From Leucoraja ocellata (taxonomy: Eukaryota), in assembly GCA_036785375.1 (NCBI GenBank), contig JAWMAR010000363.1, positions 1,922,001-1,986,000 of the forward strand: DNA of 64,000 nucleotides, given 5' to 3'. Within the stretch, counting starts at the first letter, position 1, and the number at the start of each line of letters is the position of its first letter. Position numbers and translations under genes: made by a program. Below the pieces are notes generated by a model. That model saw only the letters and a list, made by a program, of their open reading frames with translations, was not told where the DNA came from and ran no database searches. Shown piece by piece: positions 10,008-35,376 of this stretch.

Positions 10008-10080
10008 ATGCCAACTTCACCTGATACCAGAGAGGGCATACAGGATCTCAACTTAGGGAATATGGGAAAATCTTCGAAAA
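10008..10080 (+). CDS. ISL: Islet-like exon 1 ([24 protein letters not shown])
   Basis: LGNMGKSSK resembles ISL2 LGAMGDHSK and ISL1 MGDMGDPPK. The AAA A|GTAAG phase-1 donor fits exon 2. An alternative ATG lies at 10062. Confidence 0.75.
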
Positions 10081-13000: not shown

Positions 13001-16000
13001 GGATTTAGATTCTTAGATCACTGGGATCTGTTTGGAGTAAGGGGGAACTGTACAAAAGGATTGCTTCTTAACAGGTGGGGGACCAGCATTCTGGCAGGCA
13101 GGTTTGCCACTGCTACACGGGTGGTTTTAAACTGAATAAGGGGGGTGGGGTGTCAAATGGGATAGTCGAGGATGGAGTTAAAAGGAAAGGGTTTCTTAAA
13201 TGTGTGAGCAGAGAGACAGAGGGCTGTAAAATGAGGGTAGAAGCAATAGGTAGCAAGGTGAAAAGTAAAAGTGGCAGGCAGACACATCCAGGACAAAAAT
13301 CAAAAGGGCCACTTTTCAACATAATCGTATAAGGGGTAAGAGTGTTGTAAAAACAAACCTGAAGGCTTCGTGTCTCAATGCAAGGAGCATTTGTAATAAG
13401 GTGGATGAGTTGAATGTGCAGATAGCTATTAATGACTATGATATAGTTGGGATCACAGAGTCATGGCTCCAGGGTGACCAAGGCTGGGAGCTGAACGGTA
13501 GGCGGCGCGACTCTCGTCAGCAGCGGCCTCTGCAGCCCGTCTGCGTTTTTATTATTTTGGTCTATGTTTCTATGTAGTTTTTGTTATTTTTTGTTGGGGT
13601 GTGTGCGTGGGGGGGTGGGGGTGGGGTGGGAGGGAGGGGGTAATTTTTAAATCTCTCCCTGCACGGGAGACCCGACCTTTTCTTTGTTGGGTCTCCGTTG
13701 TCGTTGGGGCTGCAACGAGGAGTGGCCTGCAACAGGAGAAGACCGGGGACTCTGGTGCCGACGACTCACCTCACCGTCGCGGAGCTGGCCGAGTCCAAAG
13801 CGGGTGGAGCGGTGGTGGAGCGCTGCTGCTGCTGCGGCCCGACCTCCGGAGATTCGGAGGCTGCAACTGCGGGTCTGGCGAATGGCGGGAGACCGCTTTT
13901 CAGGGCTCTCGCAACGGCGACTTCTCCCGCCCGAGTTGCGGGGTCGAAGAGCTCCTGGAGCGGGGCCTTACAGCACTGCCCCGCGCGGCTTGGAATGGCC
14001 GCGGGACTCTGCGAGCGCACGCCGGGGGCTCTAACATCAAGACCTCGCACCACCCGGTGTGGCTTTAATGGCCGCGGGACAATCGCCATCACCAGCCGGG
14101 GGCTTTGACTTTGACTCCGACATCGGGGGGGGAGAGTGCAGTGGAGAGATAAGTTTTTTTGGTCTTCCATCACAGCGATGTGATGGATGTTTATGTAAAT
14201 TATGTTGTGTCTTGGGTCTATTTGTTTGTAATGTATGGCTGCAGAAACGGCATTTCGTTTGGACCTCAATGGGTCCAAATGACAATTAAATTGAATCTTG
14301 AATCTTGAATCTCTTGAATCTTGAACATCCAGGATATTCAATATTCAGGAGGGATAGACAGAAAGGAAAAGGAGGTGGGGTAGCGTTGCTGGTTAGAGAG
14401 GAGATGAATGCAATAGAAAGGAAGGACATTAGCTTGGAGGATGTGGAATCAATCTGGGTAGAGCTGTGAAACACTAAGGGGCAGAAAACGCTAGTGGGAG
14501 TTGTGTACAGGGCACCTAACAGTAGTAGTGGAGTTGAGGATTGCATCAAACATGAAATTAGAAATGCGTGCAACAATGGTAAAACAGTTATAATGGGTGA
14601 CTTCAACCTACATATAGATTGGGTGAATCAAATTGGCTGGGGTGCTGAGGAAGAGGATTTCTTGGAATGTATGCGGGATTGTTTTCTAAACCAACATGTA
14701 GAGGAACCAATGAGAGAGCAGGCTATTCTAGACTGGGTATTGAGTAATGAGGAAGGGTTAATTAACAGTCTTGTTGTGCATGGCCCCTTGATTATGTTGA
14801 CATAATTAATTCCGAAACAAGGGTTCTGAACTTAAAGAAAGGTAACTTTGAGGGTCTGAGACGTGAATTGGCCAAGATAGACTAGCAATTGATTCTTAAA
14901 GGGTTGACGGTGGATAGGCAATGGAAGGCATTTAAGGACTGCATGGATGAACTATAAAAATTGTTCATCCCAGTTTGGTAAAAGAATAAATCAGGCAAGG
15001 TAGTGCATCCGTGGATAACAAGGGAAATCAGGGATAGTATCAAAACAAAAGATGAAGCATACAAACTAGCCAGAAAAAGCAGCCTACCAGAGGACTGGGA
15101 GACATTCAGAGTCCAGCAGAGGAGGACAAAGGGATTAATTAGGAAAGGGAAAATAGATTATGAAAGAAAACTGGCAGGGAACATAAAAACTGACTGCAAA
15201 AGTTTTTATAGATATGTGAAGAGAAAAAGATTAGTTAAAACATATGTAGGTCCCTTGCAGTCAGAAACAGGTGAATTGATCATGGGGAACAAAGACATGG
15301 CAGACCAATTGAATAACTACTTTGGTTCTGTCTTCACTAAGGAAGACATAAATAATCTGCCGGAAATAGCAGGGGACCGGGGGTCAAATGAGATGGAGGA
15401 ACTGAGTGAAATCCAGGTTAGCCAGGAAGTGGTGTTAGGTAAATTGAATGGATTATAGGCTGATAAATCCCCAGGGCCAGATAGGCTGCATCCCAGAGTA
15501 CTTAAGGAAGTAGCCGCAGAAATAGTGGATGCATTAGTGATAATTTTTCAAAACTCTTTAGGTTCTGGAGTAGTTCCTGAGGATTGGAGGGTAGCTAATA
15601 TAACCCCACTTTTTAAAAAGGTAGGGAGAGAGAAAACGGGGAATTACAGACCAGTTAGTCTGTAGTGGGGAAACTGCTAGAGTCAGTTATTAAAGATGGG
15701 ATAGCAGCACATTTGGAAAGTGGTGAAATCATTGGACAAAGTCAGCATGGATTTATGAAAGGTAAATCATGTCTGACGAATCTTATAGAAGTTTTCGAGG
15801 ATGTAACTAGTAGAGTGGATAAGGGAGAACCAGTGGATGTCTTATATCTGGACTTTCAGAAGGCTTTCGACAAGGTCCCACATAAGAGATTAGTATACAA
15901 ACTTAAAGCACACGGTATTGGGGGTTCAGTATTGATGTGGATAGAGAACTGGCTGGCAGACAGGAAGCAAAATGTAGGAGTAAACGGGTCCTTTTCACAA

Positions 16001-19000
16001 TGACAGGCAGTGACTAGTGGGGTACTGCAAGGCTCAGTGCTGGGACCCCAGCTATTTACAATATATATTAATGATTNNNNNNNNNNNNNNNNNNNNNNNN
16101 NNNNNNNNNNNNNNNNNNNNNNNNNNNNNNNNNNNNNNNNNNNNNNNNNNNNNNNNNNNNNNNNNNNNNNNNNNNNNNNNNNNNNNNNNNNNNNNNNNNN
16201 NNNNNNNNNNNNNNNNNNNNNNNNNNNNNNNNNNNNNNNNNNNNNNNNNNNNNNNNNNNNNNNNNNNNNNNNNNNNAAATTAGCGGCAACCTGCTGCGAC
16301 TATGACGTGGTGCCGGCAAGTCGCCAAAAAAATCGCGTGTGGGACAGGTCCTTAATTCTTTCACATTCATAAAGTTATGTGTTGGCGATATATTAAACAT
16401 GCATTTGCTTTAACATTGCATCTTTCAAAATGTAAGTATTGCCTATAGCAGTGATTCCCAATGTTTTGATACCCATGTACCCTTTCGTGAATTTTCGTAA
16501 GCATCTTGTACCCCTCGTTAAAACATTGGGGGTACGCGTACCCCACTTCGGGAAATACTGGCCTATAGGAATACCGACCAATTGCATATGTTTACGGATA
16601 CATAACAGAATAGTCCATGACACAAAGATTTGCTGCCTTACAGTGCCAGAGACCCGAGTTTGATCCTGACTATCTGTCTGTACGGAGTTTGTATGTTCTC
16701 CCCGTGAGGCCTTGACCACATGGGTTTTCTCCCGGAGTTCCGGTTTCCTCCACATTCAAAGTCGTACAAGTTTGTATGTTAAATTAGCTTTGGTAAGAAT
16801 TGTAAATAGTCCCTGGTGTGTTGGATAGTGTTAATGTATGGGGGATGACTGGTCAGTGCGGACTCGGTGGGCCAAAGGGCTTGTTTCCGAGCTGTATCTC
16901 TAAGACTAAAATAAAACTAATGTAAATTTAGAAAATTATATTATGCTGTCTGGTCACTCTTCCTAGCAGCAGCATAAACAAGGAAAAGAGTTAAGGCCAA
17001 GGCAGCTACCTTGTGCTACACCAAAGGGTATATCATGCAGCTGTGACCCTTAGTCCCCAAGGCTAACAAAGTACTTCCATCCACATATACGATTGGATCG
17101 AACTTAGTACCTGATCTGACATGCTAACCCAGTTTTCGAGGCGATCTATAAGAATACTGTGATCTATGGTGTCAAAAGCTGTTGTGAGGTCTAAGAGGAT
17201 CAGCACTGAGACTGTGTCCTCATCAGTGCTAACTCTAAGGTCACTGACTATTTTTTATCAGGGCAATCTCAGTGCTGTCATTTGCTCTGAAACCAAATTT
17301 AAATTTCTCTAAAATGTCATTTTGATTCAGAATGTAATTTGGTTGAATACAACGTTTGCATTTAGTTGAGCACCACTTTCTCCAGTATCTTGCTGATAAA
17401 GTGTAGATTTGATATGGGTCTGTAATTACTCAGTAGCCCACCGTCTACATTTGGTTTCTTCGACAGAGGCTTTACGACAGCGGTTTTATAAGTATCTGGG
17501 AAAATTCCAGTCTCAGGAAGATTTTATAATTGTAAGCACAAAACTGGATAAACTGTTAAAAACATTATTTAAAAACCTTGTAGGAACCACGTCAAAATGA
17601 CAGGTAGTGGATTTGCTCTCAGCCCCAACATTACAAAGTTCTGAGGTAGAAATAACTATAAAACTGCTCATTTTTGCCTGCGCCTTACTAGGTCGGCAGC
17701 AGAGGACAGTAGAATCCAAAGGGATACTAGCTATGATAGTTTGAACCTTATCTTTAAAATAATCAGCAAAGCTCACATTTTTCAGCAGAAGCTTGGCTTC
17801 AAAAATCAGGGCTTGAAGCAGTTTTCGTAATCTCTCAATGGTGGAGAACAAAATCTTACCTTTTCCACCACTTTTGCGATAATTTGAGAAAAATTGATTC
17901 TCCTTGCAGATCTTACAGCATTATTGTAATTAGCAATGGTTTCTTTATAGATGCTAAGATATACTTCTAGTCCTGTTTTTCTCCACTTTCTTTTGGCTAC
18001 TCTACATGATTTTTTAAACATATGAGCAGAGTTTATTTAACCATGGAGATGGTTTAACCCTTGCTTTCCTTTGAATCTTGAGAGGTGCAACTTTATCAAG
18101 TGTCCTGCTAGGTTCAGTGCTGCCAACTCTCACCTTTGAGTGTGAGAATCACGCCCTCAAGCAAACTCTCACGCCCTCACGCTGATCAAAAATTTCTCAC
18201 ACTCTGGTGAGAAATTCCGTGATCAACGAAAATGTCAAAACTCAGATAAACTGCATGGTCTGCGGGTGTTGGAGAGCTGGGGCTGAAGGAGGGGATGGGA
18301 GCAGAACCAGCGGCACGAACAGATGCGGGGAGCCGGGACTGGCGAGTGTTTGCCGGGGCTGCGAGTCGCTCGCTGCAGCTCTGGCCATGGAGCACTCTGG
18401 ACAGTGCAAGTCCCGGGCGTCGGAGGCGTCGGAGGCGTCGCCGCTGCCGCTGCCGCGAGAGTCTCTGTGCCGAAGGGACAGACTCTCAAATGGAGGTGGA
18501 GAGAGAGAGAGGGGAAGGAGACAGCGAGATAGTGGGGAGAGAGAGAGGGGGGTGAGAGGAGAGAGGGGAGAGACAGAGGGGGAGTGAATGGAGAGAGAGA
18601 AGGGAGTTGGGGGGGGGAGAGGGGAGAGAGTTAGAGGAGAGAGAGGGGGAGAGAGAGGGGGGAGAGAGAGAGGGGCAAGAGGGAAGAAAGAGGGAAGAGA
18701 GAGAGGGGGTGGAGAGGGAGGAGAGGGTAGGAGAGAATGGGAGAGAGAGGGGAAGAGAGAGGGGTGGTAAAAGAGAGTGGGGGAAGAGAGAAACGGGGGA
18801 AAGAGAGAGAGATGGGGGGGGCAAAGAGAAAGAGGAGATAGAGACAGAGGAGAAAGAGAGAGTGGAGAGAGAGCCAGGAGGAGAGTGAGATGAGGGGGAG
18901 AAATGGGGGAGAGAGAGGGAGAGAGAGGGGGAAGAGAGAGAGATGAGAGGAGAGATAGAGAGAGGGGAGAGTGTGTGGAGAAGGAGAGAGAGGGGGAGAT

Positions 19001-22000
19001 AGAGAGGGAGGGAGAAAGAAAGAGAGGGGAGGAGAGGGGGAAGTGAGGGGGGAGAGAGAGAGAGGGGGAGAGAGAAAAGAAAGAGAGGGGGACAGAGAGA
19101 GGGGGAGAGAGAGTTAGGGGAAAGAGAGGGAGAGAGAGTTAGGGGAAAGAGAGGGGAGAGAGCGGGAGAGGGGAGAGAGAGAGAGGAGAGAGGGGACGTG
19201 AGAGAGNNNNNNNNNNNNNNNNNNNNNNNNNNNNNNNNNNNNNNNNNNNNNNNNNNNNNNNNNNNNNNNNNNNNNNNNNNNNNNNNNNNNNNNNNNNNNN
19301 NNNNNNNNNNNNNNNNNNNNNNNNNNNNNNNNNNNNNNNNNNNNNNNNNNNGCCGAATTTGCCCAGGTGACCGGCATGGATCAGGCTGCAGCTCGGTGCA
19401 TCCTGGAGGACAACCAGTGGCTGCTGGAAGTAAGTACCAAGCACTGGGTAGAAATGGTGGAAGATAGTGGATTTCAAATGGGGGTGGTTGGAGAAAGCAT
19501 CCTGCTTGCCTGCTAGATTTTCACTTACTGTAACTGCAGGAAAATGTTCCCGATGTTGGGAGCGTTCAGAACCATGGGTCACAGTTTAAGAATAAACTGT
19601 TCGCCAGTTACGACTGAGATGAGAACAAACTTTCTTCACGCAGAGAGTTGTGAATCCGTGGAATTCTCTGCCACAGAAGGCAGTGCAGGCCAATTCACTG
19701 GATGTTTTCAAGAGAGAGTTACATTTAGTTCTTGGGGCTAACGACATCAAGGGATATGGGGAAAAAACAGGAAAGAGGTACTGATTTTAGATGAATAGCC
19801 ATGATCATATTGAATGGCAGTGCTGGCTCGAAGGGCCAATGGCCTATTTCTGCACCTATTTTCTATGTTTTTATGCTCGAGTATATGGCAATAAAACTCG
19901 ATCACTTGATTTTGAAGCATTCATGCATGGTGGAGGTTTAATGTAGTCATAGAGTGATACAGTGTGAAAACAGGCCCTTCGGCGCAATTTGCCCACACCC
20001 ACCTACGCCACCTCCAAACCTGTCCTATCCATGTATCAGTCTAATTTTTTCTTAAATGTTGGGATGGTCCCTACCTCAACTACCTCCTCTGGCAGCTTGT
20101 TCCATACACCCATCACCCTTTGTGTGGATAATGTTACCCCTTAAAAAGTTACCTCTTAAAAATACTTCATACAAAAAACATTGAAATCATACTTCTACAG
20201 TGCACTAAAACATGATTTTAATACATCAAATTTCAAAATGTTCCTACCCTGGGAGGGGGGCCACCTTTCTTCCACACCCTCTCCCCACTTGGTTGCTCAC
20301 CCCCTCACCGGGTACCCCCAAGGCCAGTGATCAATGATCACACAGCCTCCCCCCTTTCAAAAACGTTCCAATCCAATTTAAAGCATATATATTGCATTCA
20401 AGTGTAAGTTAAAAGACTCGCTACATGCACCATATTGCACAATTTCAAGCTGAAAATGCAAACATTCCGTACCAATGGAAGGGGGACACCCTCCTCCCAC
20501 CCACCCCCCTCCTCCCAACCACCCCCTCCTCCCACCCACCCCCTCCTCCCCAACCACCCCCCTCCTCCCACCCACCCCCCTCCTCCCAACCACCCCCCTC
20601 CTCCCACCCACCCCCCGTCTCTACGCTCCCTCGGGCTTGGTCCATCACAATTTCTCACTCCCAACTTTCACCCAATGTTGGCAGCCCTGTAGGTTACTGT
20701 TAAAAGCTTTTATAATTTTGTCAACAGAATCTCCCTGGGTGAGAGGAGCGTATGTACTTACAAGCTCAGAAAATTTGAGTTCTGCTGCTGGATCTAAAAA
20801 GCACCTTTTACATGTGGACTCCAAAAGGCGCCTAACCAACTTTAAAAACACATCAAAAAACACACAGTAATGGTCAGAAATAGTAAAATCAGGCACCAGG
20901 ATGTTATGAATTTTGAACCCTCGGGATATCTCCAGTCTTCTTCTTGCGTATGACGTGCACGGTGTAAAGTTGTAGATCAAGGGCAGACGTCCAGGCCAGG
21001 GCAGCATCAGTTGCTGGGTGGATGGCGTTGATGCCCCCAGGGAAAAGCCTCAGTGGGCAGTCATCCACGATGTGTGGGATGGTCTGGTCTGGATGTCCGC
21101 AGTCGCAAGCAGGGCTGTCTGTCATCCCCCCACTTATGCAGATGATGGGCTGTTCTTGCATGGAGGGTGCAGATTCTGTTCAGGTTTACCCATTGCTTGC
21201 GATGGAGGTCAAAACCCGGTGATTTCATTGTGGGGTCTGTGGTGACCTCTCCGTTGTTGGTGTTGGCGTCTTTCAAGGCTCTGCGCCACTCCGTCCCGGA
21301 GTCAAAGTCTTCCAGGGATTTAACGGAAGACCAGAAGCGTTTGCGGGACTTCAGGCGCATGCTGGGCAGATTGTTTAAGTCAGTATGGAAGGGAAGGTCA
21401 GGGTTAGCCTCGATGGTGCACACATTTTTCAACATCCTCTCCCTTCTGCGTATGCTGGGAAGGGCGATATGAGAGAGGACAGGGAGCCACTGCAAAGGTA
21501 TTGACTTAAACGTCCCTGTGATGACTCATATTGCAGAATTAAGGACAGTGTCAACTCGTTTGGAGTGGGAGCTATTCGTCCATGCTGTTTTGCAAAACTC
21601 AGCTGTTGAGTGGACTAGGGCTAAACGTGCGGTACGGAGACTGTGTGCATTGGATCCCCAGCTGTTGCCTGCAAGTTTCCTGATGATGTTGACCCTTGCT
21701 CTCAGTTTATCAGCCACCCTCTTCAGGTGTCCATGATAGGTGGGGGTGCGATCCAGGGTGACACCGAGGTACTTGGGGAATTCTTCATTCTTCACCTGCT
21801 TACCACAAAAGGTCACTCGGAGCTTTGCATTGGCGAGCCGATTGCTGAGGTGAAGAGCAGTGACAGTTGTCTTAGATGGATTAGGGCAAAATCGCCAGAA
21901 GGTGAAGTACTCCTCCATCCCCTTCAGGTCTTTAGTTAGCACTCTGCTGATATCCTCAAAGGCAGCTCCCTGGTAGGCAAGGGCAAGGTCAGTGCTTATG

Positions 22001-25000: not shown

Positions 25001-28000
25001 TTTAGTTTAGAGATACAGCATGGAAATAGGCCCTTCGGCCCACCGGAGTCCACGACAACCAGCGGTCCATGCACATTAACACCATCCTACACACACCAGG
25101 AACAATTAACACTTATACCAAAGCCAATTAACCTACAAACCTGTACGTCTTTGGAGTGTGGGTAGAAACCAAAGATCTCGGAGAAAACCCACGGGGAGAA
25201 CGTACAAACTCCGTACAGACAGCACCCATAGTCGGGATCGAACTCAGGTCACTGGAGCTGCAAGAGCTGTAAAGCAGCAACTCTACCGCTGCGCCACCTT
25301 CTATTAAATGTTAAAAGTTTCTGTCTCCACAAATGCTGCCTGGCTTACTGGATGTTTCCAGCATTTTCCTTTTTAATTTCAGATTTCCGGCATCTGCATT
25401 TTCAATGCTTTTTTTAATGCAGCTATGATGATAATGGACATAATATCACTCTTAGTTGTCGACATTCATGTTTCTGTACCGCACCACTAGAATCGACAGT
25501 TTATCATACCACCTACACCTTAGTGTTTCCATGTCATTCTGCTTCCACGCATTTTGACCCAGAGCTAAGGCAGGTATTAATGCCACATAATCCTGCCTGG
25601 CGCCACAGTGAGGTTCTATAGTGCAGTGAAAATCTCCCAATGTCTAACCAAAATGTATTCCTCAACGTTGAAGGTACAAAGAGATAGCCTGTCGCTTGAT
25701 GCAATGCCATCTTAGGGGTTTGCAAAATGACAATGTCAAAAGAAATTAATGTACAAGTAAGAATTTCATTGTTCTGTTTGGGACATATGACAATTACATA
25801 CTCTTGACTCGTGACTCTACTGTGATTCAAACAGACTTTGAAAGGTTCAAACCACCTTTCTTTCTTATGTTTTTCTCATTATTCCACTCATAAAATTCAG
25901 ACTGCATTCGGTGCTTAGGCCATCATGGTTTTGATGTCAAGTCAATTTCTTATTCTTTTTTACTATAGTTGAACAAGCCAGTTAACACAATAACACAGGT
26001 AAATATTATAATAATCAATAATACAACAAATAATCAATAATAATACAATCAATAATCTATAATACAATAAATTAATAACAATAATACGAGGCAACCATAG
26101 TGCAAAATCTAAGTCTGTAGTGCAACCAAATTACAGTGTGATTTTGTCTGCTAAGTTTAGTTTAGTTCAGAGATACAGCATGGAAACGGGCCCATCGGCC
26201 TTCCAAGTCCAATCCAACCTGCACACTAGTACTTTCCTACATACTGGGACCAATTTGAATCAGCCAATTAATCTACAAACATGCATATCTCTGAGGATAT
26301 GGCATGGACATCACACGCCGCAGCACTCGTGAGTAAGGCAAGGCAGCGCCTTTATCACCTCAGGCAATTGAGGAAATTCAGAGTGTCTCCGACGATCCTC
26401 GAGTGCTTCTACTCAGCGGCTGTGGAAAGCATCTTGTCCGGAAATATTACCATCTGGTTTGGGAATTGCTCTGCCCAGGACAAGAAGTCTCTGCAGAGAG
26501 TAGTGCGTTCGGCTGAACGCACTATGGGAACTTCACTCGCCCCCCTGCAGGAACTATACAACAGGAGGTGCAACTCCAGAGCAAATAAAATCATGGGAGA
26601 CCCCTTCCACCCATGCAACGGACTGTTCCAGCTGCTACGGTCAGGCAAACGCCTCCGTTGCCATACGGTGAGAACGGAGAGGTTGAGAGGAGTTTCTTCC
26701 CAGAGGCCATTCGGTCTGTAAACTCCCATCTCACCAGGGACTAACTTTACTACGTTTTTCCTTCCAATATTTAATATGTAAAAGAATATGTGTGTGTTTA
26801 TGATTGTGTTTATAGTTTGTTTGTCTTTTTGCACAAAGTCCGCGAGCATTGCCACTTTCATTTCACTGCACATCTCGTATGTGTATGTGACGAATAAACT
26901 TGACTTGACTTGACTTGATCTCTGGAATGTGAGAGGAAACCGGAGCACCCGGAGAAAACCCACATGGTCACAGGGAGAACGAGCATACGGACAGCTCCCG
27001 TAGGCAGGATCAAACCCAGGTCTTGCTGTACGGCAGCAGCTCTACTGCTGCGCCACTGTGCCACCCTTAATGTCTCATTTAGTTGGTTAATATCCAGTGT
27101 AAATTCATTATGGTTTTTATCTGGGTTGCAGAGGAAGTCCCACTGTCTACCTGTAGGGGCTGTAGTAAACACATTACCGACCCATACATTCTGAGAGTCT
27201 ATCCTGACTTGGAGTGGCATGCAGCCTGTCTCAAGTGTGTGGAGTGTAACCAGAATCTGGACGAGAGCTGTACTTGCTTCATCAAGGAAGGAAAGATATA
27301 CTGCAAGACTGACTATTTCAGGTGAGCAATAACATTTGTCCTATCCTTGCTGCCGTTCATACAGTCTACGTGTATTAAATGCTAGTTAGCATGCCATCTG
27401 CGACACAAGAGAAGTCAAAATCAAATGTAGCCTAAATGGAAATAATGTGAAGATACAAAGAACTGCAGATGATAATTTACAAAGAAAAGATGCAAAGTGC
27501 TGGAGTAACTCAATGGGTCAGGCATCATCACAGAGGGTCAGATAGCATCCCTGTGCCCCACCTGTATTTGCACCTTTTTCTTGCCTTCCTCCTCCATCTA
27601 TATTCCTTTGTCAAGCTTCATACCATATCCTTATTTCATACTTTTTGTCTTTCCATCCCAAATCCAATGAAAATCCACCTTTGCCTGTATCCACCTATCA
27701 CTTTGTCCTGCCCTAGCGTGGCGTGCACAAACAGATGATCAAACAGAACAAGTCGTCTTACAACTTTAGGCTGTGCACACCATACGCAAGAAGAAGAAAC
27801 AGACCATGTGATATTTTGTGCAGCTCGATCTTGTTCATCTGAAACAATTTATCAATGTCCATCATTTCTTGTAAATGTCAATAAGGTCACAGGTTGGGCA
27901 GGCTACGACTTTATTCATTGATGAGCAGAGGTTGAGGGGTGATCTTATAGAGATGTATAAAATAGTGAGGGGAATCAATTGGGTGAATGCAGAGGGTGCA

Positions 28001-31000
28001 TCTAGAACTAGAGTTTAAGGTGAGAAGGGCAAGATTTAATAGGAACCTGCACAGGTGGGTATATGAAATGAGCTGCTAGAGGACATAGTTGAGGTAGACA
28101 GAACAACATTTAAAAGAATGTTGTTATTTATTTAAATAACAACATTTAAAATATATTTGGGTATCTTGGATAATAAAGGCATACGGATAATTAAACGTTA
28201 TTCTCTTATCATGTATCTGTACAATGCAAATGACTCGATTGTAATCATGTATTATCTTTCCACCGGCTGGTTAGCATGCAGCAAAAGCTTTTCACAGCAC
28301 CTCGGTACATGTGGTAATAAACTAAACAGATAGGAAAGATTTAGAGCAATGTGGGCCAAATGCAGGTAAACTAGCTTAGATGGGGCATCTTAGTTGAGCT
28401 GGATCGCAGGACCTGTTTGCATGCTGTATTACTATATGATTCTAACAACTGAACTCTCCTGTGCTGTTCCTTAGCAAATTTTCTGTGAGATGTGCTCAGT
28501 GTCAGGCGGGATTGTCATCTTTAGACCTGGTCCTAAGGGCTGGAGACCTCACCTATCACCAACGATGTTTCTGCTGTGTGGCCTGCAGTCGGCAGCTCAT
28601 GCCTGGAGATGAGTTCACGCTGCGATTTGACGGACCATACTGTATTCAGGACGGTGGGCTTCCAGATTCCAGCTTAAACCACAAGGGTGTTTTCAGTCCT
28701 CTAGCCAACACCAGCAACTTATATCTGTCAGGTCAGTTGATGCTTGTACTCAAATGCTATCATGCAGGTGAACAATAGCCTATCTCTTACATTCCTGGAC
28801 CAGTATCCAAAGATATGCGCTGTCCTTTCAGAATTTAGTTTAGTTTAGAGATACAGCATGGAAACAGGCCCTTAGAGCTGCCAAGTCCATGCCAACCCAT
28901 TCACACATGTCCTATGTTATCTCACTTTCTCATCCACTCCCCAGGGGGCAGTTTGTAGAGGCCAATTAACCTACAAAACCACATGTGTTTGGGATCTGAG
29001 AGGAAACCAGAGCACATGGTGTCGACCTTTATGGTTACAGCGAGAACATGCAAATTCCATACAAACAGCACCTGAGGTCAGGATTGAACCCAGGTGTCTG
29101 GCACTGTGAGGAAGTAGCTCTGCTAGCTGACATGAATACAAGAAGCATGTTAAAATCCAACTATGCCACAGAAGACTTAAAGTCATTAAATAGAATCATA
29201 GTGCTGTATAGCATGAAATCAGGCCCTTTGGCCCAGCTTGGACAGGCTGGGCTATACATTTGCCTACATTTGGTCTCTCTAATCCCATCCTATCCATCTA
29301 TCTACTCAATTATGTCTTGTAGTTGTGTCTGCTTCTGTGGCTTCCTCTGTTAGCTTATTCAAGATCCAGGCCTGAGTGAAAAAGTTGCCCAAAGTCTTCA
29401 AGCACAGGGTTTCCCCATGTTACAAATGACGTGATTTGACCACACAATGAAATGACCACAAAATGTCTCTCATTCACATTTAAAGCATTTTTTCAAGCTA
29501 GAAATATGAATAATAAAATGTTTCATTGTGTTCTTTAATGATTGAATATTGGTATATATTCTTTTTGTTTAATTATGGTTGGTGTTAGGACGATTTTTCA
29601 ATTAAACTGAAGAGTTATAGCAGGTGTATGTGAAGCCATATATGTTACCATAGAAAAATATTGTTTCTGACTTAAAGAGAAAAGGGCTTTTGGATAATAA
29701 TCATAGAATGGTAGCATAAGCTGCGGACTGCCTCTAATGGTGAACATGAAAGCACTAGATTGTCATTAACACCACACCTGTGTCACCAATGTTTTCACGC
29801 AAAACCTGATATTTTTTACCTATTCTGGATTATATGTGTGGAGAATTATCAGTCCTGGTCTTAACAAATGACTGAACGAGCATGAAGAACCACATTCCCT
29901 CAGACCACCAGAAACCTGGATCGTTCTTGACCTCAGATGTTGTCTGTGGTGGAGTTTGCATATTTTCCAGGTGGTCTATTTTCCTTCCAAGGACATGTGG
30001 GTTTGTAGGATTACTTGATCCATTCCTAGAGGTCCAACAGTATTAATAAATCTGCCAATAGAGTCAAACAGCTGGAAACAGGCCCCTCGGCCCAACTCGA
30101 CAGATGGCGCAACGGGCTAAGTGTTCGGCTGGCGACCAGAAGGTAGCCGGTTCGAATCCCGCTTGGAGTGCACACTGTAGTTGTGTCCTTGGGGCAAGAC
30201 ACTTCACCCACCTTTGCCTGTGTGTAAATGTAATGTAATTATGTGAAGCACTTTGGGGTCAATGCAAGTTGACTAAAAATGTGCTATATAAATAAGATTA
30301 TTATTATTATTATTATAACTCGTCCAATGCAGACCAAGGTCTCCATCTAAGCTCATCCCATTTGCCCGCATTTAGTCCATATCCCTCTGATCATTTTGTT
30401 CCCATGTACCTGTCCCAATGGTTTACAATTCTTTTATGTTGAATATTTCTATATCATGGCAGAAAAACTCAAAGCCCACCGATCAGCAGCACATGCTGCA
30501 AAACACTCGGATACGATAACCCGTGTACGGACGGTGCTGAGCGAGCAGCAGTTGCTCACGCTGCGGACATGTTATGCGGCAAACCCGCGGCCAGATGCAC
30601 TCATGAAGCAGCAACTGATAGAGATGACGGGCCTCAACTCGAGGGTCATCAGGGTCTGGTTTCAGAATAAACGGTGCAAGGACAAAAAGAAGAGTGTTTT
30701 GCAGAAACACATAGACCAGCGCGACAGGGACAAAGCAGTAAGTGGATCTTGTCTTAAACTGTGTGCCGTGGAAATTCTTGCATTAATATTCTTTTGATTC
30801 CCTCTACTTTTCTCCTGGCTCAGATGCAGTTCCACAGTCTTCCAGTAGCTAAACCAAGTTTGCAGAAGGATCCAGACCCGAAACGTCACCCATCCTTTCA
30901 ATAGACAATAAACAATAGGTGCAGGAGTAGGCCATTCGGCCCTTCAAGCCAGCACCGCCATTCAATGTGATCATGGTTGATCATCCACAATCGGTACCCC

Positions 31001-34000
31001 GTTCCTGCCTTCTCCCCATATCCCCTGACTCTGCTTTCTTCAAGAGTCCTATCTAGCTCTCTCTTGAAAGTATCCAGAGAACCGGAATTTCTCTCCAGAG
31101 ATTCTGCCTGACTCACTGAGTTAGTCCAGCACGTTATGTCTATCGTTTATTAGTTTAGTTTAGTTTCATTTAGTTTTTTGTAGTTTAGTTTAATTTAGTT
31201 TAGATATACAGGTTCTATGGCCCATTGAGTCCACACTGATGACCGATCACCTGTTCACACCAGTTCTATGTTGTCCCACTTTCTCATCCACTCCCGATAC
31301 AAAGGGGCAATTTACAGAGGCCAATTAGCCTACAAACCCACACATCTTTGGAGTTGTGCGAGGAAATCAGAACACCCTGAGGACGCCCACTTGGTAACAG
31401 GGAGTACGTGCAAACTCCATACAGACAGCACCTGAGGTCAGGATGGAACCCGGGTCTCTGGTGCTGTGAGGCACTGCTCCACAGTGCTGCCCTGTAACCT
31501 TATTTGTTTATCAGATATGCTGTGATAAATCAGGTATTTAGAAACATAGGAGCAGGAGGAGGCCATTCAGCCCTTCGAGCCAGCACCGCTATTCATTGTA
31601 ATCATGGTTGATCGTCCCCAATCAATAACCCGTGAATGCCTTCTCCCCATATCCCTATATTCCACCAGCCCCTAGAGCTCTATCTAACTCTCTCTTTGAT
31701 TGCTGCATCGGCCTCATCAGCCACCCCCAGAACCCACAGAACCAACCTGGAAGCAAGTCATTCCCAAACCTGAGACACTCCCTGATGAGTTGATATTGTT
31801 AACTGAATAGACAAATTGAACATTGTTGGGAGTAATTACAATGGAGCAATTACTTTCCTTCTGCTGTTTCTTAATGGAATGCTTTAAAGCATTTTAAAAT
31901 TAAAAAATAGTTGTTGGCTAACTATTGATCAGCGCAGCCTTGACCTGCAGTTTAAGTAAACTGACGGGCAAATGTCTGGTTGTGATGCCTCCCTGCTGAA
32001 CTGTGGGGCAGCTACAGAACCTAAGAACACTGGAGGATAGAGGAGATGGGGAGGGAGAGGAGGTAGGGAGGGGAGAGTGACTGGGGAGAGGTGAGTGCTC
32101 AGGGAGGGGGAAGAGGGTACTGCAGGGAGAGATGGGGGGTGAGTGGTAGGAAAGGGAGGGGGAGCGGGTAGGAGAAAGGGAGCAGAGAGGAGAGGGTGTG
32201 TGGGAAAGGGAAGGGTTAGGGGAGAAGGAGTATGGAGGGGCCTGTGATGGGAGGGAATGGGAAGGTGAGAGGTTGGAGAGGGAAGAAGGGCTGGGATGGG
32301 GGAGTGGGGTAGGGAGGGGAAAGTGAAAGGAGGAGGGAAGGTGTTAGGGATGGGAAATCTTTAGATTTCCTTAATATCCAGAACTCCCACCCCCTCTGTG
32401 CTGGGAAAAGGTTCTGACTGTCTACATTATCATTGCCTCTCAAAATGTTATATATTTCCATCTGGTCTCTCCTCAACCTCCGGCATTCCAGGGTAAACAA
32501 TCCAAGTCTGTCTAAACTCTCCCTGTAGCTAATCCAGGCATCGTTCTAGTAAACCTCTGAGGTACCCTCTCCAAAATCTCCTCATCCTTCCAGTAATTGG
32601 GCGACGAGAACTCTCTGTAATATTCCAAATGTGGTAAAGCAAAGGTGCAAAGCTGCACAAAGTACGGTCGACTAAATGTGATCGAACCAAAGTCCTACAA
32701 AGCCGCATCATAAGAGACTTCCTGATGCTTACACTCAATGACCTAAACAATGAAGACAAGCATACCATATGTCATTGTTGCCACTTTATTTACTTGTGTT
32801 GCCATTTTCAGATAGTTGTGGACTTGATCCATATCCAAGATCCCTCTGTACATCAATACTGTTAAGGGTCTTGCCAATAGTGTTAAGGGTTGAAGAGGAG
32901 TGAATGATCTTGTGGCCTCCATTCCCTCTAACAGCCCTTAAGAAAATTTGTTAACCACAGCTATCCTTCTGTTGAAAGGCATTCCTATAGTGCTGCAGGA
33001 TCGCAGAATTTTGATCATGAGAATGGCAATGAAAGAATAACGATATGTTTTGAATTTTGATTTGAATTTGATTCCTTTATTGTCATTCAGACCTTTCGGT
33101 CTGAACGAAATTATGTTGCCTGCAGTAATACACAGTAACAATAAATAACAAAACATACAATAAACACAAATTAACATCCACCACAGTGAGTTCACCAAGC
33201 ACCTCCTCACTGTGATGGTGGCAAAAGTCTTAGTCTCTGTCTCTTCCCTCCTTGTTCTCCCTCTGCGCTGAGGCGATCGATCCAGGCCGAAGATGCCGCT
33301 TTCCAGTCCAGCGGACCTCCGTGGTGATGTCGCCGCTGCCGAAAGCCGGAACGCCGTCTCAGCTCCTAGTCGGCCCGCCACAGCCTCAGCTCCGAGTCCC
33401 GCTGCATCAGCTCCAAGTCCCGCAGCCTCAGCTCCGTATCCCGCTGCAACAGCTCCAAGTCCCGCAGCCTCAGCTCCAGGCCGCTGAATCAGCTTTTAGT
33501 CCCGCTGCAACAGCTCCGAGTTCCGCAGCCTCAGCTCCGAGTCCCGCTGCAACAGCTCCGAGTCCCGCAGCCTCAGCTCCGAGTCCCGCTGCAACAGCTC
33601 CGAGTCCCGCAGCCTCAGCTCCGGGCCGCTGCATCAGCTCTGAGTCCCGCTGCAACAACTCCAAGTCCCGCTGCATCAGCTCCGAGTCCCGCAGCCTCAG
33701 CTCCGAGTCCCGCTGCAACAGCTCCGAGTCCCGCTGCCCCAGCTCCGAGTCCCGCAGCCCCAGCCCAATTCTGTCTGTTTTACAAGGCAGGATGATGTGT
33801 GACTTGGAAGGAAACTTGCAGGTTTCCTGTAGGGCAGCACACTGGCACAGCAGTAGAGTTACTGCCTTACAACACTACAGACCTGGGTTTGATCCTGACT
33901 ACTGGTGCTGTCTGTGCGTAGTTTGTATATTCTCTCTATCACCGCATGAGTTTTCTCCCGGTGCTTCAGTTTGTCACACTCCAAAGACGTACAGTTTTGC

Positions 34001-35304
34001 AGGTTAATTGACTTTGGTAAAATTGTAATTTGTCCCTAGTGTGTGCGATTATGCTAGTGTATGGGGTGATCGCTGATCGGCGCGGACTTGGTGGGTGAAG
34101 GGCCTGATTCCATGTTGTATCTCCAAAGTTTAAAGTTGGTGATGTTGCCACCTGCCTGGTGGCCTTTTTCCAGGAGGTAAAGATTGTGAGTTTGCAAGAT
34201 ATTGACAGAGCAATTCTGAACAAATATGCAATGCATTTTTTAACTTTTGTAAGTGAGACATCACTCAAGTTTTCTCAAGAAATCTACAGTACATTTTTCT
34301 TTGAATTTTTCAACAGGATATCCGAGGGTTGATTGGAACCTTGATGGTAGCCATGAGTCCACTAACACAGAAAGTTGATTTATACTGCAGTCCTATTGCG
34401 GTTCACAAATGTTACACACCATGGGAAGATCTAAAGGACTTTACACAGCAGGTAGCTGTAACCACAATAACATTACATTTCCCTTGCCTGATTGTTCCTG
34501 CAGCAGAACTGGTTCTTACTCATTGTATGCTGAGTAGTCCATGAGAAACCAATATCCACAATGACCAACTCTCCCCTCCCTCTGGCATGTGAGCGCCCCT
34601 CTTCTCAATGGAGATAGAATCGATCCTGACTAAGTCCAACAAAAAGGATTATCTGAAGCGGTGCCACAGCTGGTAGAGCTGCTACCTTCAACATCAAAGG
34701 CCCGGCTTTGATTCTGAACACGTGCTGTATGTGTGGAGTTTACATGTTGTCCCTGTGACCACATGCGTTTCCTTAAGTTGATCCAGTTTTCTCATCTGTC
34801 TGTCTGTCTATCTCATTTCTTTCTTTCTATCGATCTATCTATCCATCTAGCCACCTATCCATCCATCCCTCCCTCCCTCCATCCCTCCCTCCCTATCTCC
34901 CTCCCATCCATCTATCCCATCCAATCCATCTATCTCAAAGAACACTTGCCTTGCCAAGGTGGATGAAGGCTTGAATTTTGGAAAATCCTCAAAATTGCAA
35001 TCTCCTTGGATCTTTCATGGTGATTATCTTCCCATCTTCTCCCTTTTCTCCCAAGATACTAACTCTACATCCTATGCCACTTTTCTTCCGCAATGTCGCA
35101 GAATGTTATTTTTCATGGATATTTTTTTTCTTTATTTTGAGGATGTTTTGTTCCTATTAATAAATATACTCTTTTTTTTCTCCACAGGTAGCCTTTTCTG
35201 GTGGAAGATGCCACTCAAACTGCAGTAGTAGTGAGGTGTCAGCTCCAAGTTCTCAACTTCCAGATACACTGAGCAGCGGAGGATCCCAAGCAGCAGATCT
35301 CTGA
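10008..35304 (+). CDS. ISL: Islet-family LIM-homeodomain transcription factor, six coding exons, 348 aa (paralogue identity unresolved)
   Basis: Exons of 73+190+257+275+135+117 = 1047 nt join in frame with GT-AG introns of phases 1,2,1,0,0. The product has two LIM domains, an Islet homeodomain, an Lhx3-binding-like segment and an SSQLPDT tail. Confidence 0.92.
10644..10863 (+). repeat. AT-rich tandem repeat with an 85-bp unit
   Basis: Units start GATCTATTTC at 10644 (shortened, 50 bp), 10694 and 10779. Confidence 0.85.
11346..11690 (-). mobile_element. Degenerate Rex1/Babar LINE 3' end
   Basis: CCTGATGG..GGAAGAAGCAGTTCTTGAACCTG is the reverse of the RFKNSFFP-like C-terminus. Confidence 0.55.
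12878..16076 (+). mobile_element. CR1-clade LINE (end of ORF1, endonuclease, RT), interrupted and running into a gap
   Basis: Motifs [56 protein letters not shown] and [16 protein letters not shown]. Several stops are present. Confidence 0.93.
13497..14321 (+). mobile_element. GC-rich non-autonomous retroelement with a (TTGAATC)n tail
   Basis: Splits the CR1 codons for WELN/IQG. TSD TGAAC at 13492-13496 and 14322-14326. A second full copy lies at 54033-54922. Confidence 0.85.
16077..16276. other. Assembly gap (200 N)
   Basis: Run of N. Confidence 1.
16277..16331. mobile_element. Right end of a Harbinger-like MITE
   Basis: Ends GTGGGACAGGTCCT followed by TAA, like the TIR of 23231-23405. 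Confidence 0.6.
16449..16560. mobile_element. hAT/Charlie-type MITE, 112 bp
   Basis: TIRs CAGTGATTCCCAA and TCGGGAAATACTG. Perfect 8-bp TSD GCCTATAG. Confidence 0.88.
16630..16920 (+). mobile_element. HE1-like V-SINE
   Basis: TGCTGCCTTACAGTGCCAGAGACCC head with the standard body and tail. Confidence 0.8.
18495..19206 (+). repeat. GA-rich polypurine low-complexity tract
   Basis: About 700 bp almost entirely G and A, ending at the gap 19207-19351. Confidence 0.95.
20488..20615 (+). repeat. C-rich minisatellite, unit of about 18-19 bp
   Basis: Repeated CCCCTCCTCCCA(A/C)CCAC. Confidence 0.9.
20937..22111 (-). mobile_element. Vingi-like (Ingi group) LINE, 5'-truncated
   Basis: Motifs [35 protein letters not shown] and [15 protein letters not shown], with a C-terminal [15 protein letters not shown]. 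(GAA)n tail. TSD TCCAGT at 20931-20936 and 22112-22117. Confidence 0.82.
23231..23405. mobile_element. PIF/Harbinger-like MITE inside L2 ORF1
   Basis: Perfect 19-bp TIR AGGGCCTGTCCCACTTGGG, flanked by TAC and TAA. Confidence 0.85.
24207..24240. mobile_element. 34-bp palindromic mini-element with an 8-bp TSD
   Basis: CAAAGATTATAGAGGAGCTCCTCTAGGATCTTTG is flanked by CTTGGTGG on both sides. Confidence 0.8.
24992..25300 (-). mobile_element. HE1-like V-SINE
   Basis: Near full-length reverse copy with a (TTTAG)n tail. Confidence 0.85.
26154..27066 (-). mobile_element. HE1-like V-SINE interrupted by Rex1
   Basis: SINE halves at 26154-26293 and 26918-27066. Confidence 0.8.
26294..26917 (+). mobile_element. 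Rex1/Babar LINE 3' fragment (young)
   Basis: [15 protein letters not shown]...[17 protein letters not shown]...LQRVVRSAE with a (CTTGA)n tail. TSD ATCTCTG at 26287-26293 and 26918-26924. Confidence 0.9.
27132..27321 (+). CDS. ISL: Islet-like exon 2 (LIM1)
   Basis: ttgcag|AG..TTCAG|gtgag, 190 nt. Zinc ligands CRGC, HAAC, CVEC and CKTD, plus the [18 protein letters not shown] signature. Confidence 0.96.
27714..27798 (+). mobile_element. Short Vingi-tailed element
   Basis: TACAACTTTAGGCTGTGCACACCATACGCAAGAAGAAG matches the Vingi-like 3' end at about 20937-20975. Confidence 0.65.
28475..28731 (+). CDS. ISL: Islet-like exon 3 (LIM2)
   Basis: ccttag|C..TCAG|gtcagt, 257 nt. Zinc ligands CAQC, HQRC, CVAC and CIQD, plus [14 protein letters not shown]. 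Confidence 0.95.
28835..29125 (-). mobile_element. HE1-like V-SINE
   Basis: Reverse SINE body and (TTTAG)n tail. Confidence 0.75.
30100..30316 (+). mobile_element. tRNA-derived SINE with an L2-type tail
   Basis: A box TGGCGCAACGG (30105), B box GGTTCGAATCC (30149), CORE-like GTCCTTGGGGCAAGACACTT and tail AGCACTTTG..GTGCTATATAAATAAG(ATT)n. TSD AACTCG. Confidence 0.88.
30463..30737 (+). CDS. ISL: Islet-like exon 4 (homeodomain)
   Basis: ggcag|AA..GCA|gtaagt. Encodes [59 protein letters not shown]. Confidence 0.97.
31150..31495 (-). mobile_element. HE1-like V-SINE
   Basis: Reverse SINE with a long (TTTAG)n tail. Confidence 0.75.
32400..32880 (-). mobile_element. CR1 LINE 3' fragment, degenerate
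   Basis: [10 protein letters not shown] and [20 protein letters not shown] motifs. Confidence 0.75.
33050..33766 (-). mobile_element. GC-rich non-autonomous retroelement (related family) with an internal minisatellite
   Basis: On the minus strand it has CCATCACAG..CTGTGGTGG and TTCAGACC-GAAA-GGTCTGAATGACAATAAA hairpins followed by a TCAAAT-type tail. Confidence 0.7.
33357..33766 (+). repeat. 21-bp minisatellite with alternating variants (42-bp higher-order unit)
   Basis: CAGCTCCGAGTCCCGCTGCAA alternates with CAGCTCCGAGTCCCGCAGCCT. Confidence 0.95.
33832..34135 (+). mobile_element. HE1-like V-SINE
   Basis: GGGCAGCAC head, B box and standard tail. Confidence 0.8.
34317..34451 (+). CDS. ISL: Islet-like exon 5 (Lhx3-binding-domain-like)
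   Basis: caacag|[36 protein letters not shown] aligns to ISL1 NIQGMTGTPMVAASP..NPVEVQSYQPPWKVLSDF. The donor CAG|gtagct is weak, and an in-phase alternative lies after 34457. Confidence 0.85.
35188..35304 (+). CDS. ISL: Islet-like exon 6 (C-terminus)
   Basis: Strong polypyrimidine tract then ccacag|[41 protein letters not shown] versus ISL1 [38 protein letters not shown]. Absent from the ORF track because it is short. Confidence 0.92.
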   Translation, partial: VAFSGGRCHSNCSSSEVSAPSSQLPDTLSSGGSQAADL

Positions 35305-35370
35305 CTTTGTAACCTGCCATTAACCAAGACTTTATTGGAAAACCAACAAGAATGACTTTCATAAAGACAC

Positions 35371-35376
35371 AATAAA
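35371..35376 (+). terminator. Candidate polyadenylation signal
   Basis: AATAAA 66 nt after the stop codon. Confidence 0.5.

What the first reader, a model, noticed from the sequence alone, without database searches (positions are those of the whole stretch)
10008..35304. A complete but strongly divergent Islet gene: candidate third vertebrate Islet paralogue
Seen: six exons splice into an uninterrupted 348-aa ORF with all 16 LIM zinc ligands. Against human ISL1 recalled from memory, I count about 14/55 differences in LIM1, 23/55 in LIM2 and 9/60 in the homeodomain. Known: ISL1 and ISL2 homeodomains are almost identical, and mammals have only these two genes. Inference: this is neither orthologue but a retained whole-genome-duplication paralogue lost in mammals, possibly related to the divergent teleost isl1-like gene. 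It would add an uncharacterised member to the LIM code for motor neurons, heart and pancreas.
Basis: partly seen in the sequence, partly recalled or inferred. Interest (0 to 1): 0.85.

Follow-up and report, generated by a model that had tools for sequence, protein, structure and literature searches.

The report
Hidden third vertebrate Islet gene
This skate has, besides the well-known developmental regulators ISL1 and ISL2, an intact and faster-evolving third Islet gene, likely left over from the early vertebrate genome doublings and likely also kept by sharks, coelacanth, turtles, eels and salmon, but its job is untested.

Summary
Confirmed. The same skate genome holds separate canonical ISL1 and ISL2. 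The gene lies just upstream of basigin, an HCN2-type channel and POLRMT (the human 19p13.3 / chicken 28 block), which two published reconstructions pair with the ISL1 chromosome at the second genome duplication. In ML trees it forms one clade (100/99) with mislabelled 'ISL-1/2-like' models from sharks, rays, coelacanth, turtles, eels, tarpon, arapaima, pike and trout, branching like the species tree. One RNA-like contig of a related species joins exons 4-5-6; allele differences are mostly silent (7 of 11). Ten literature searches found no description. Tissue, function and partner binding are untested; synteny outside skates was not checked.

The parts
10008..10080 (+). Coding exon 1 (ATG 10008; second, better-context ATG 10062); phase-1 donor
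   Evidence: homology to shark N-termini; both ATGs and the GT unchanged in two DNA relatives; no RNA support
27132..27321 (+). Exon 2, LIM1 (27152-27316)
   Evidence: Pfam LIM E 8.9e-15; covered by a 204-nt contig of run X1
28475..28731 (+). Exon 3, LIM2 (28491-28655) and linker
   Evidence: Pfam LIM E 2.5e-12
30463..30737 (+). Exon 4, homeodomain (30516-30695), recognition helix identical to ISL1
   Evidence: Pfam Homeodomain E 4.9e-16; joined to exon 5 in contig of run X1
34317..34451 (+). Exon 5, Islet LIM-interaction domain (34335-34424), 12 of 30 residues as in ISL1
   Evidence: aligns to the ISL1 and ISL2 peptides of PDB 2RGT and 6CME (with the Amblyraja orthologue); spliced
35188..35304 (+). 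Exon 6 coding part to stop codon; the RNA-like contig runs on to 35429 (3' UTR)

Best explanation
This is an intact third Islet-family LIM-homeodomain gene, separate from the skate's own ISL1 and ISL2, likely the copy made beside ISL1 in the second vertebrate genome duplication and likely still working as a DNA-binding partner of LDB and LHX3/4 proteins. Shown: gene structure, separate ISL1 and ISL2, position before BSG-HCN2-POLRMT, one clade with shark, ray, coelacanth, turtle and teleost proteins, splicing of exons 4-6 in a relative. Inferred: it sits on the gene-poor, fast-evolving 'beta' chromosome copy, so it changed faster and was lost repeatedly (mammals certainly; apparently birds, squamates, amphibians). 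Predicted mechanism: the unchanged recognition helix reads the same TAAT-type sites as ISL1; the two LIM domains bind LDB1/2; the partly kept LIM-interaction domain docks on LHX3/4; changed surfaces in LIM2, helices 1-2 and the interaction domain would tune partner affinity, so it would act as a weaker Islet in a narrow expression domain rather than a full ISL1 substitute.
For: Own ISL1 on C4382 and ISL2 on C61. Order gene(+), basigin-type exon(+), HCN(+), POLRMT(-) on both C363 and C6; basigin is the best PDB hit, narrowly over neuroplastin; the ISL2 contig C61 carries its own HCN4-type and neuroplastin-type genes. The little-skate orthologue's chromosome length equals Leri_29C, listed as LOC19 = GGA28, CLG-C 2beta, partner of GGAZ (PMC10115646 SI Table 3); Lamb 2021 puts EMB in quadruplicate A and BSG in B of an ((A,B),(C,D)) paralogon. 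Five of 5 intron positions and phases match own ISL1/ISL2 where their flanks were read. Four-fold sites differ at 34/52 (ISL1) and 31/48 (ISL2), like ISL1 vs ISL2 42/69. Tree of 32 proteins: clade of 14 at 100/99 with species-tree order; 94/91 and 100/99 branches keep that shape without the isl1-like rows. Alleles: 7 silent, 4 replacement in 1047 nt, pN/pS 0.16, binomial p 0.003. Skate vs sevengill shark: homeodomain 3/60 but linker 25/43 differences. Helix 3 identical to ISL1 in 22 of 24 clade members listed. A 17%-identical nematode interaction domain still binds its LHX3 partner (PMC5496915 passages).
Against: Protein trees do not resolve the sister: third+ISL1 p 0.40, third+ISL2 p 0.14; a few LIM2 residues are shared with bony-fish ISL2, and the neighbours look more like HCN4 and neuroplastin than HCN1 and embigin. 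AU rejection of an elasmobranch-only duplicate is marginal (p 0.054 and 0.043; 0.048 and 0.047). The HCN2 label rests on elimination and on POLRMT adjacency; the PDB search could not separate HCN2 from HCN4. Synteny of the coelacanth, turtle and teleost genes was not seen. Expression rests on one low-depth contig pair (depth about 3) from one run that the tool labels 'RNA? (probably DNA)'. ISL1 H272 and P264 equivalents are changed.
Confidence: 0.78

Rival explanations
1. It is a third ohnologue, but the second-round sister of ISL2 rather than of ISL1.
For: LIM2 residues shared with ISL2 at 4 sites vs 2 with ISL1; neighbour HCN N-terminus is HCN4-like and the basigin exon hits the neuroplastin locus at 55% vs embigin 43%; AU does not reject (p 0.14).
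Against: Two published chromosome reconstructions pair GGA28 with GGAZ; the shared residues are mostly bony-fish ISL2 states, not uniform in chondrichthyan ISL2 (alignment); tree leans to ISL1 (83/89).
Confidence: 0.12
2. It is a lineage-specific duplicate of ISL1 or ISL2 in elasmobranchs, and the turtle, coelacanth and teleost genes are separate fast duplicates drawn together by long-branch attraction.
For: All members have long branches; AU rejection is marginal; non-skate synteny unseen.
Against: It lies in the paralogous block, not beside ISL1 or ISL2; silent sites are saturated; the clade's inner order follows the species tree and an equally long control (Denticeps, 1.14) is not drawn in; turtles + teleosts + control is rejected (p 0.035).
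Confidence: 0.05
3. It is the orthologue of the divergent teleost isl1-like (isl1l/isl1b) gene.
For: AU tests do not reject isl1-like as sister to the whole clade (p 0.48) or to its teleost members (p 0.27).
Against: Best trees put Denticeps and Engraulis isl1-like with ISL1 (76/94; 81/25) and the clade has other teleost members; a review treats isl1b as a teleost-duplication paralogue (PMC7916704 passage). Zebrafish isl1l itself was not in hand.
Confidence: 0.08
4. It is a decaying remnant under little selection.
For: About ten times more change than ISL1 between ray and shark; little RNA evidence; repeated losses.
Against: Open frame and all ligands in 13 of 13 elasmobranch proteins checked; domain-biased conservation; pN/pS 0.16.
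Confidence: 0.04

Closest known systems
Vertebrate ISL1 (Islet-1)
   Same: LIM-LIM-homeodomain-interaction domain layout, five intron positions, all zinc ligands, identical recognition helix; likely second-round sister chromosome
   Different: 65 of 200 domain residues differ from the skate's own ISL1; different locus; much faster evolution; patchy retention
Vertebrate ISL2 (incl. teleost isl2a/isl2b; database names 'ISL-3' belong here, e.g. Polyodon P0171)
   Same: Same architecture and introns; a few shared LIM2 residues
   Different: 68 of 200 domain residues differ; ISL2 lies with HCN4/NPTN on another contig
Teleost isl1-like (isl1l / isl1b)
   Same: Also a divergent Islet gene; not detected in early zebrafish embryos by qPCR (PMC5247716 passage)
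   Different: Divergent clupeiform isl1-like proteins group with ISL1, outside this clade
Cryptic ohnologues lost in mammals (Pdx2, Pax10, wnt6b, cspg5)
   Same: Two-round duplicate kept in sharks/coelacanth and some bony lineages; beta-segment copies show more loss and faster evolution (PMC10115646, PMC4362833 passages; Pax10 from a search listing only)
   Different: No paper found describing the Islet case; retention in turtles but apparently not birds or squamates

Membership tests
Islet (ISL) LIM-homeodomain family | Two N-terminal LIM domains with 8 zinc ligands each | tested here: met
Islet (ISL) LIM-homeodomain family | Islet-type homeodomain | tested here: met
   best homeodomain hit in the PDB is ISL1 1BW5, E 2.5e-30 vs LHX4 5e-11 (Amblyraja orthologue); helix 3 identical
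Islet (ISL) LIM-homeodomain family | C-terminal LIM-interaction domain sequence | tested here: met
   12/30 identical to ISL1; M265, V266 kept, V282 to I
Islet (ISL) LIM-homeodomain family | Binding to LDB1 and LHX3/4, and to DNA | not tested
ISL1 orthologue | Is the genome's ISL1 locus / nests in the ISL1 clade | tested here: not met
   a separate 98-100% ISL1 exists on C4382; tree
ISL2 orthologue | Is the genome's ISL2 locus / nests in the ISL2 clade | tested here: not met
   separate ISL2 on C61 with HCN4- and NPTN-type genes; ISL2 clade 99/98 excludes it
Two-round WGD ohnologue | Lies in a paralogous block of the same paralogon | tested here: met
   BSG-HCN2-POLRMT block; LER29 = GGA28; paralogon 7 of Lamb
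Two-round WGD ohnologue | Duplication older than the cartilaginous/bony split | tested here: met
   clade with coelacanth, turtles, teleosts 100/99; silent-site saturation; long-branch caveat
Two-round WGD ohnologue | Conserved synteny of the bony-vertebrate members | not testable with these tools
Two-round WGD ohnologue | Resolved sister paralogue | tested here: inconclusive
   AU p 0.40 (ISL1) and 0.14 (ISL2); published chromosome pairing favours ISL1
Teleost isl1l/isl1b orthology group | Groups with divergent teleost isl1-like proteins | tested here: inconclusive
   not in best trees but not rejected by AU; zebrafish protein not in hand
Retrocopy or pseudogene | Lost introns or broken frame | tested here: not met
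   five introns at ancestral places, open frame on both haplotypes

The most novel reading that the evidence does not exclude
A pan-gnathostome third Islet, hidden under wrong database names in sharks, coelacanth, turtles, eels and salmonids, that reads ISL1's DNA sites but has rewired LIM and interaction surfaces and so acts as a distinct, competing letter of the LIM code in a cell type that mammals lost or rebuilt.
Probability: 0.2. Interest if true: 0.78.

Novelty: new member of a known kind. Interest (0 to 1): 0.55.

Why it matters
Islet genes are core regulators of motor neurons, heart field, pancreas and hindlimb and are treated as a two-gene family in jawed vertebrates. A third ohnologue changes the ancestral inventory (at least three of four copies kept), corrects many database labels (coelacanth 'ISL2', salmonid 'ISL-2B', turtle 'ISL-2-like'), warns that Islet read-mapping, probes and Isl1/2 antibody work in skate, shark, turtle and salmon may miss or mix a paralogue, and gives a testable case of a beta-subgenome transcription factor kept for over 400 million years in scattered lineages. 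The pattern itself (cryptic ohnologues such as Pdx2 or Pax10) is known, so it is not a new kind of system.

Tried and rejected
No run on record as RNA was listed as holder. Runs X8 and X9 showed no exon cover; X1 and X2 laid nothing on exon 1: no conclusion. PDB search could not tell HCN2 from HCN4. PARP marker search hit only an unrelated contig. Motif scans for CDC34, serine protease, SCAPER and PARP in 80 kb upstream and 100 kb downstream found nothing (recalled motifs, weak). Search for shared non-coding elements with 40 kb each of the ISL1 and ISL2 loci gave exon hits and scattered single hits that were not followed. Shared-derived-residue counts were not decisive: sharks share 8 with turtles, 4 with teleosts, but 6 with the long-branch control. 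The 55-row careful tree did not finish; its quick tree had the same split at SH-aLRT 84. 'Isl1-2', pelvic-fin enriched in the skate genome paper, was considered as this gene and rejected: neighbouring gene numbers are Bbs12, Etnppl and Il6st, which fits canonical ISL1. Cross-species dN/dS could not be computed (no relatives' coding DNA). Four look-ups in earlier scan findings returned nothing.
Full report
Observation. A six-frame scan found LIM and homeodomain motifs on the + strand at 27152, 28491 and 30522. Pfam confirms two LIM domains and a homeodomain. Against mammalian ISL1 (P0131) the differences are 14/55, 23/55 and 9/60, and 18/30 in the LIM-interaction domain. All 16 ligand positions are kept in the window protein and in 12 of 12 other elasmobranch proteins checked; turtles and most teleost members swap the last ligand for His or Glu.

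The organism and its other Islet genes. The homeodomain exon is 100% identical to a Leucoraja erinacea model named 'ISL-1-like', so the window is from a skate. A search of the genome with that exon gave 5 matches among 133 candidates scored: the window (C363), a copy on C6, one on C4382 and two on C61. C4382 encodes ISL1 (98-100% to Amblyraja ISL1 over clean exons) and C61 encodes ISL2 (76-92% to basking-shark ISL2). The C6 copy is about 97-98% identical over introns and has the same neighbours, so it is likely the other haplotype. Its coding sequence differs at 11 of 1047 bases, 7 silent and 4 replacement; pN/pS 0.16, binomial p 0.003. All five introns fall at the same place and phase as in own ISL1 and ISL2 (the last ISL acceptors were not read, the donors were). 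Four-fold sites differ at 34/52 from ISL1 and 31/48 from ISL2, against 42/69 between ISL1 and ISL2: the three are about equally old.

Synteny. On both C363 and C6 the gene is followed on the same strand by an Ig-plus-transmembrane exon (C363:2,020,854; best PDB hit basigin 1.4e-26, neuroplastin 3.7e-26, embigin 4.4e-9), an HCN gene (C363:2,083,316) and, on the other strand, POLRMT, whose 14 exon matches fall only on these two contigs. BSG(+), HCN2(+), POLRMT(-) is the human 19p13.3 order (own knowledge; BSG at human 19:0.57 Mb, chicken 28, gar LG19 is in Lamb's table). The ISL2 contig C61 carries an HCN4-type gene and the neuroplastin-type hit; C453 carries an HCN1-type gene and the embigin-type hit (HCN type labels use recalled motifs and elimination). 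The little-skate orthologue lies on a 31,094,262-base chromosome, which is Leri_29C in the skate genome paper's supplement, while its ISL1 lies on Leri_1C. SI Table 3 of that paper lists LER29 = LOC19 = GGA28 as the 2beta copy of linkage group C, paired with GGAZ; Lamb 2021 lists EMB, BSG and NPTN as quadruplicates A, B and D under an ((A,B),(C,D)) pattern. Both make this block the second-round sister of the ISL1 block. The same skate paper reports more loss and faster evolution on beta segments.

Relatives. Three homology searches and one representative search (only the best 120 or 150 of each are listed) with three name look-ups gave members in 16 named shark and ray species, coelacanth, 23 turtle species (both suborders), two eels, conger, tarpon, arapaima, pike and a cluster of 22 salmonid proteins. 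All carry automatic names such as 'ISL-1-like', 'ISL-2-like', 'ISL-2B' or 'ISL LIM homeobox 2'. A two-profile screen of all 419 proteins then held added coelacanth and trout and showed no mammal, bird, crocodilian, squamate, amphibian, lungfish, gar or chimaera member; that absence is weak because lists were truncated. Loss in human is established knowledge.

Trees (232 domain columns, LG+C20+F+G4). With elasmobranch members only (21 rows) the clade has a 0.63 stem in an unresolved vertebrate fork; nesting with a skate ISL1 or shark ISL2 gave AU p 0.054 and 0.043. With 32 rows, 14 members form one clade at 100/99, ordered (sharks and rays, ((coelacanth, turtles), teleosts)); two divergent clupeiform isl1-like proteins sit with teleost ISL1 at 81/25. 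In the 29-row tree an equally long control branch was not drawn in, and turtles + teleosts + control was rejected (p 0.035). Not rejected: isl1-like as sister to the clade (p 0.48) or to its teleost part (p 0.27), third+ISL1 (0.40), third+ISL2 (0.14). Rows were chosen by me from the 58 aligned; the divergent hagfish protein and redundant species were left out of the careful trees.

Expression. No holder is on record as RNA. In run X1 (a relative at about 96-97% identity; labelled 'RNA? (probably DNA)') a 764-nt contig lies in three contiguous pieces on 30460-30737, 34317-34448 and 35185-35429, which are the predicted 4/5 and 5/6 joints once a repeated CAG is allowed for; a 204-nt contig covers exon 2; depth is about 3 (table 8). 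This is what a spliced mRNA gives; it is one run, tissue unknown. Exon 1 has no RNA cover. Three skate database models each use a different first exon, whereas shark models begin with a stretch homologous to the end of this exon 1, and the zebra-shark model's extension resembles its start; I keep exon 1 but cannot choose between 348 and 330 aa.

How it likely works. The recognition helix is identical to ISL1 in 22 of 24 clade members listed, with single conservative changes in the other two; the skate's nine homeodomain changes lie at positions 1, 9, 11, 14, 32, 35, 41, 42 and 59, outside the base-reading helix (standard homeodomain knowledge), so DNA specificity is predicted to be ISL1-like. 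Between skate and sevengill shark the homeodomain differs at 3/60, LIM1 7/55, LIM2 13/55, the interaction domain 12/30 and the linker 25/43, against 0, 0, 1, 0 and 2 for ISL1: constrained, but far looser than ISL1. The interaction domain keeps the Met-Val hotspot and a hydrophobic residue at V282 but loses P264 and H272; a nematode domain with 17% identity still binds its LHX3-type partner (PMC5496915, passages), so binding is likely kept, perhaps weaker. LDB genes are present in the genome. I therefore read it as a working but relaxed Islet with a narrow role; binding, tissue and function are inferred, not shown.

Literature. Ten full-text searches found no description of a third jawed-vertebrate Islet. 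Seen as passages: PMC5247716 (four zebrafish genes, isl1l divergent and not detected early), PMC7916704 (isl1a/b, isl2a/b as teleost paralogues), PMC7530604 (Islet-Scaper block, only Isl1 and Isl2), PMC4362833 (catshark pancreas, Pdx2), PMC7269912, PMC8040251, PMC10115646, PMC5496915, PMC7797366, PMC4598079. Supplements searched: PMC10115646 (spreadsheet cut when stored, one scanned file unreadable; its SI Table 3 as held is a chromosome table, not the list of 68 differentially retained ohnologues cited in the text, so this gene may be on a list I could not see), PMC8040251 (cut; no ISL1/ISL2), PMC5901865 (19 files, no hit). Subscription papers and bioRxiv supplements are not covered, and gene-tree databases may already separate the clade.

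Verdict. Real, intact, likely a third 2R Islet ohnologue (about 0.9 for ohnologue of either sisterhood, 0.78 for the full reading). New member of a known family and of a known evolutionary pattern; apparently undescribed; function open. Interest 0.55.

Noticed in passing
G000:C6:477436-506169 (L040-L043): Second copy of the whole gene with the same neighbours, about 97-98% identical; with paired copies of ISL2 and HCN4 on C61, HCN1 on C453 and LDB on C194 this suggests uncollapsed or mis-joined haplotypes in a 3.44-Gb assembly.
   Followed up: partly
L035:1495-1713 (G000:C6:1285970): Follistatin-domain exon about 650 kb beyond HCN2 that matches follistatin (E 1.5e-38) far better than FSTL3 (about 1e-21) while another follistatin exon lies on C75: a slow-evolving FSTL3 orthologue or a further retained ohnologue.
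   Followed up: partly
L013 (G000:C175:4004626) and C857:18846: A fifth, weaker-scoring HCN-type locus besides four canonical types.
   Followed up: no
window 2854-3345 (-), 14470-14802 (+), 15659-16000 (+): Fragments of non-LTR retrotransposons (endonuclease and reverse-transcriptase Pfam hits) upstream and in the 17-kb first intron.
   Followed up: partly
window 33386-33755; 18492-19206: 21-bp minisatellite (17.8 copies) in intron 4; long GA-rich tract in intron 1.
   Followed up: no
proteins P0155, P0414, P0410, P0171: Database labels mislead: coelacanth H3ARN3 'ISL LIM homeobox 2', salmonid 'ISL-2B' and tarpon 'ISL-2-like' belong to the third clade, while Polyodon 'ISL-3-like' is ISL2; the name Isl3 is thus already taken.
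   Followed up: yes
protein P0221 (Eptatretus burgeri): A second, divergent hagfish Islet; it fell next to ISL2 in the quick tree only and shares no derived residue with the shark clade.
   Followed up: partly
PMC10115646 SI Table 4, LE13721: The label 'Isl1-2' for what is likely canonical skate ISL1 implies a second gene annotated Isl1 in that data set, possibly this one; 'Isl1-1' was not found in the stored part of the file.
   Followed up: partly
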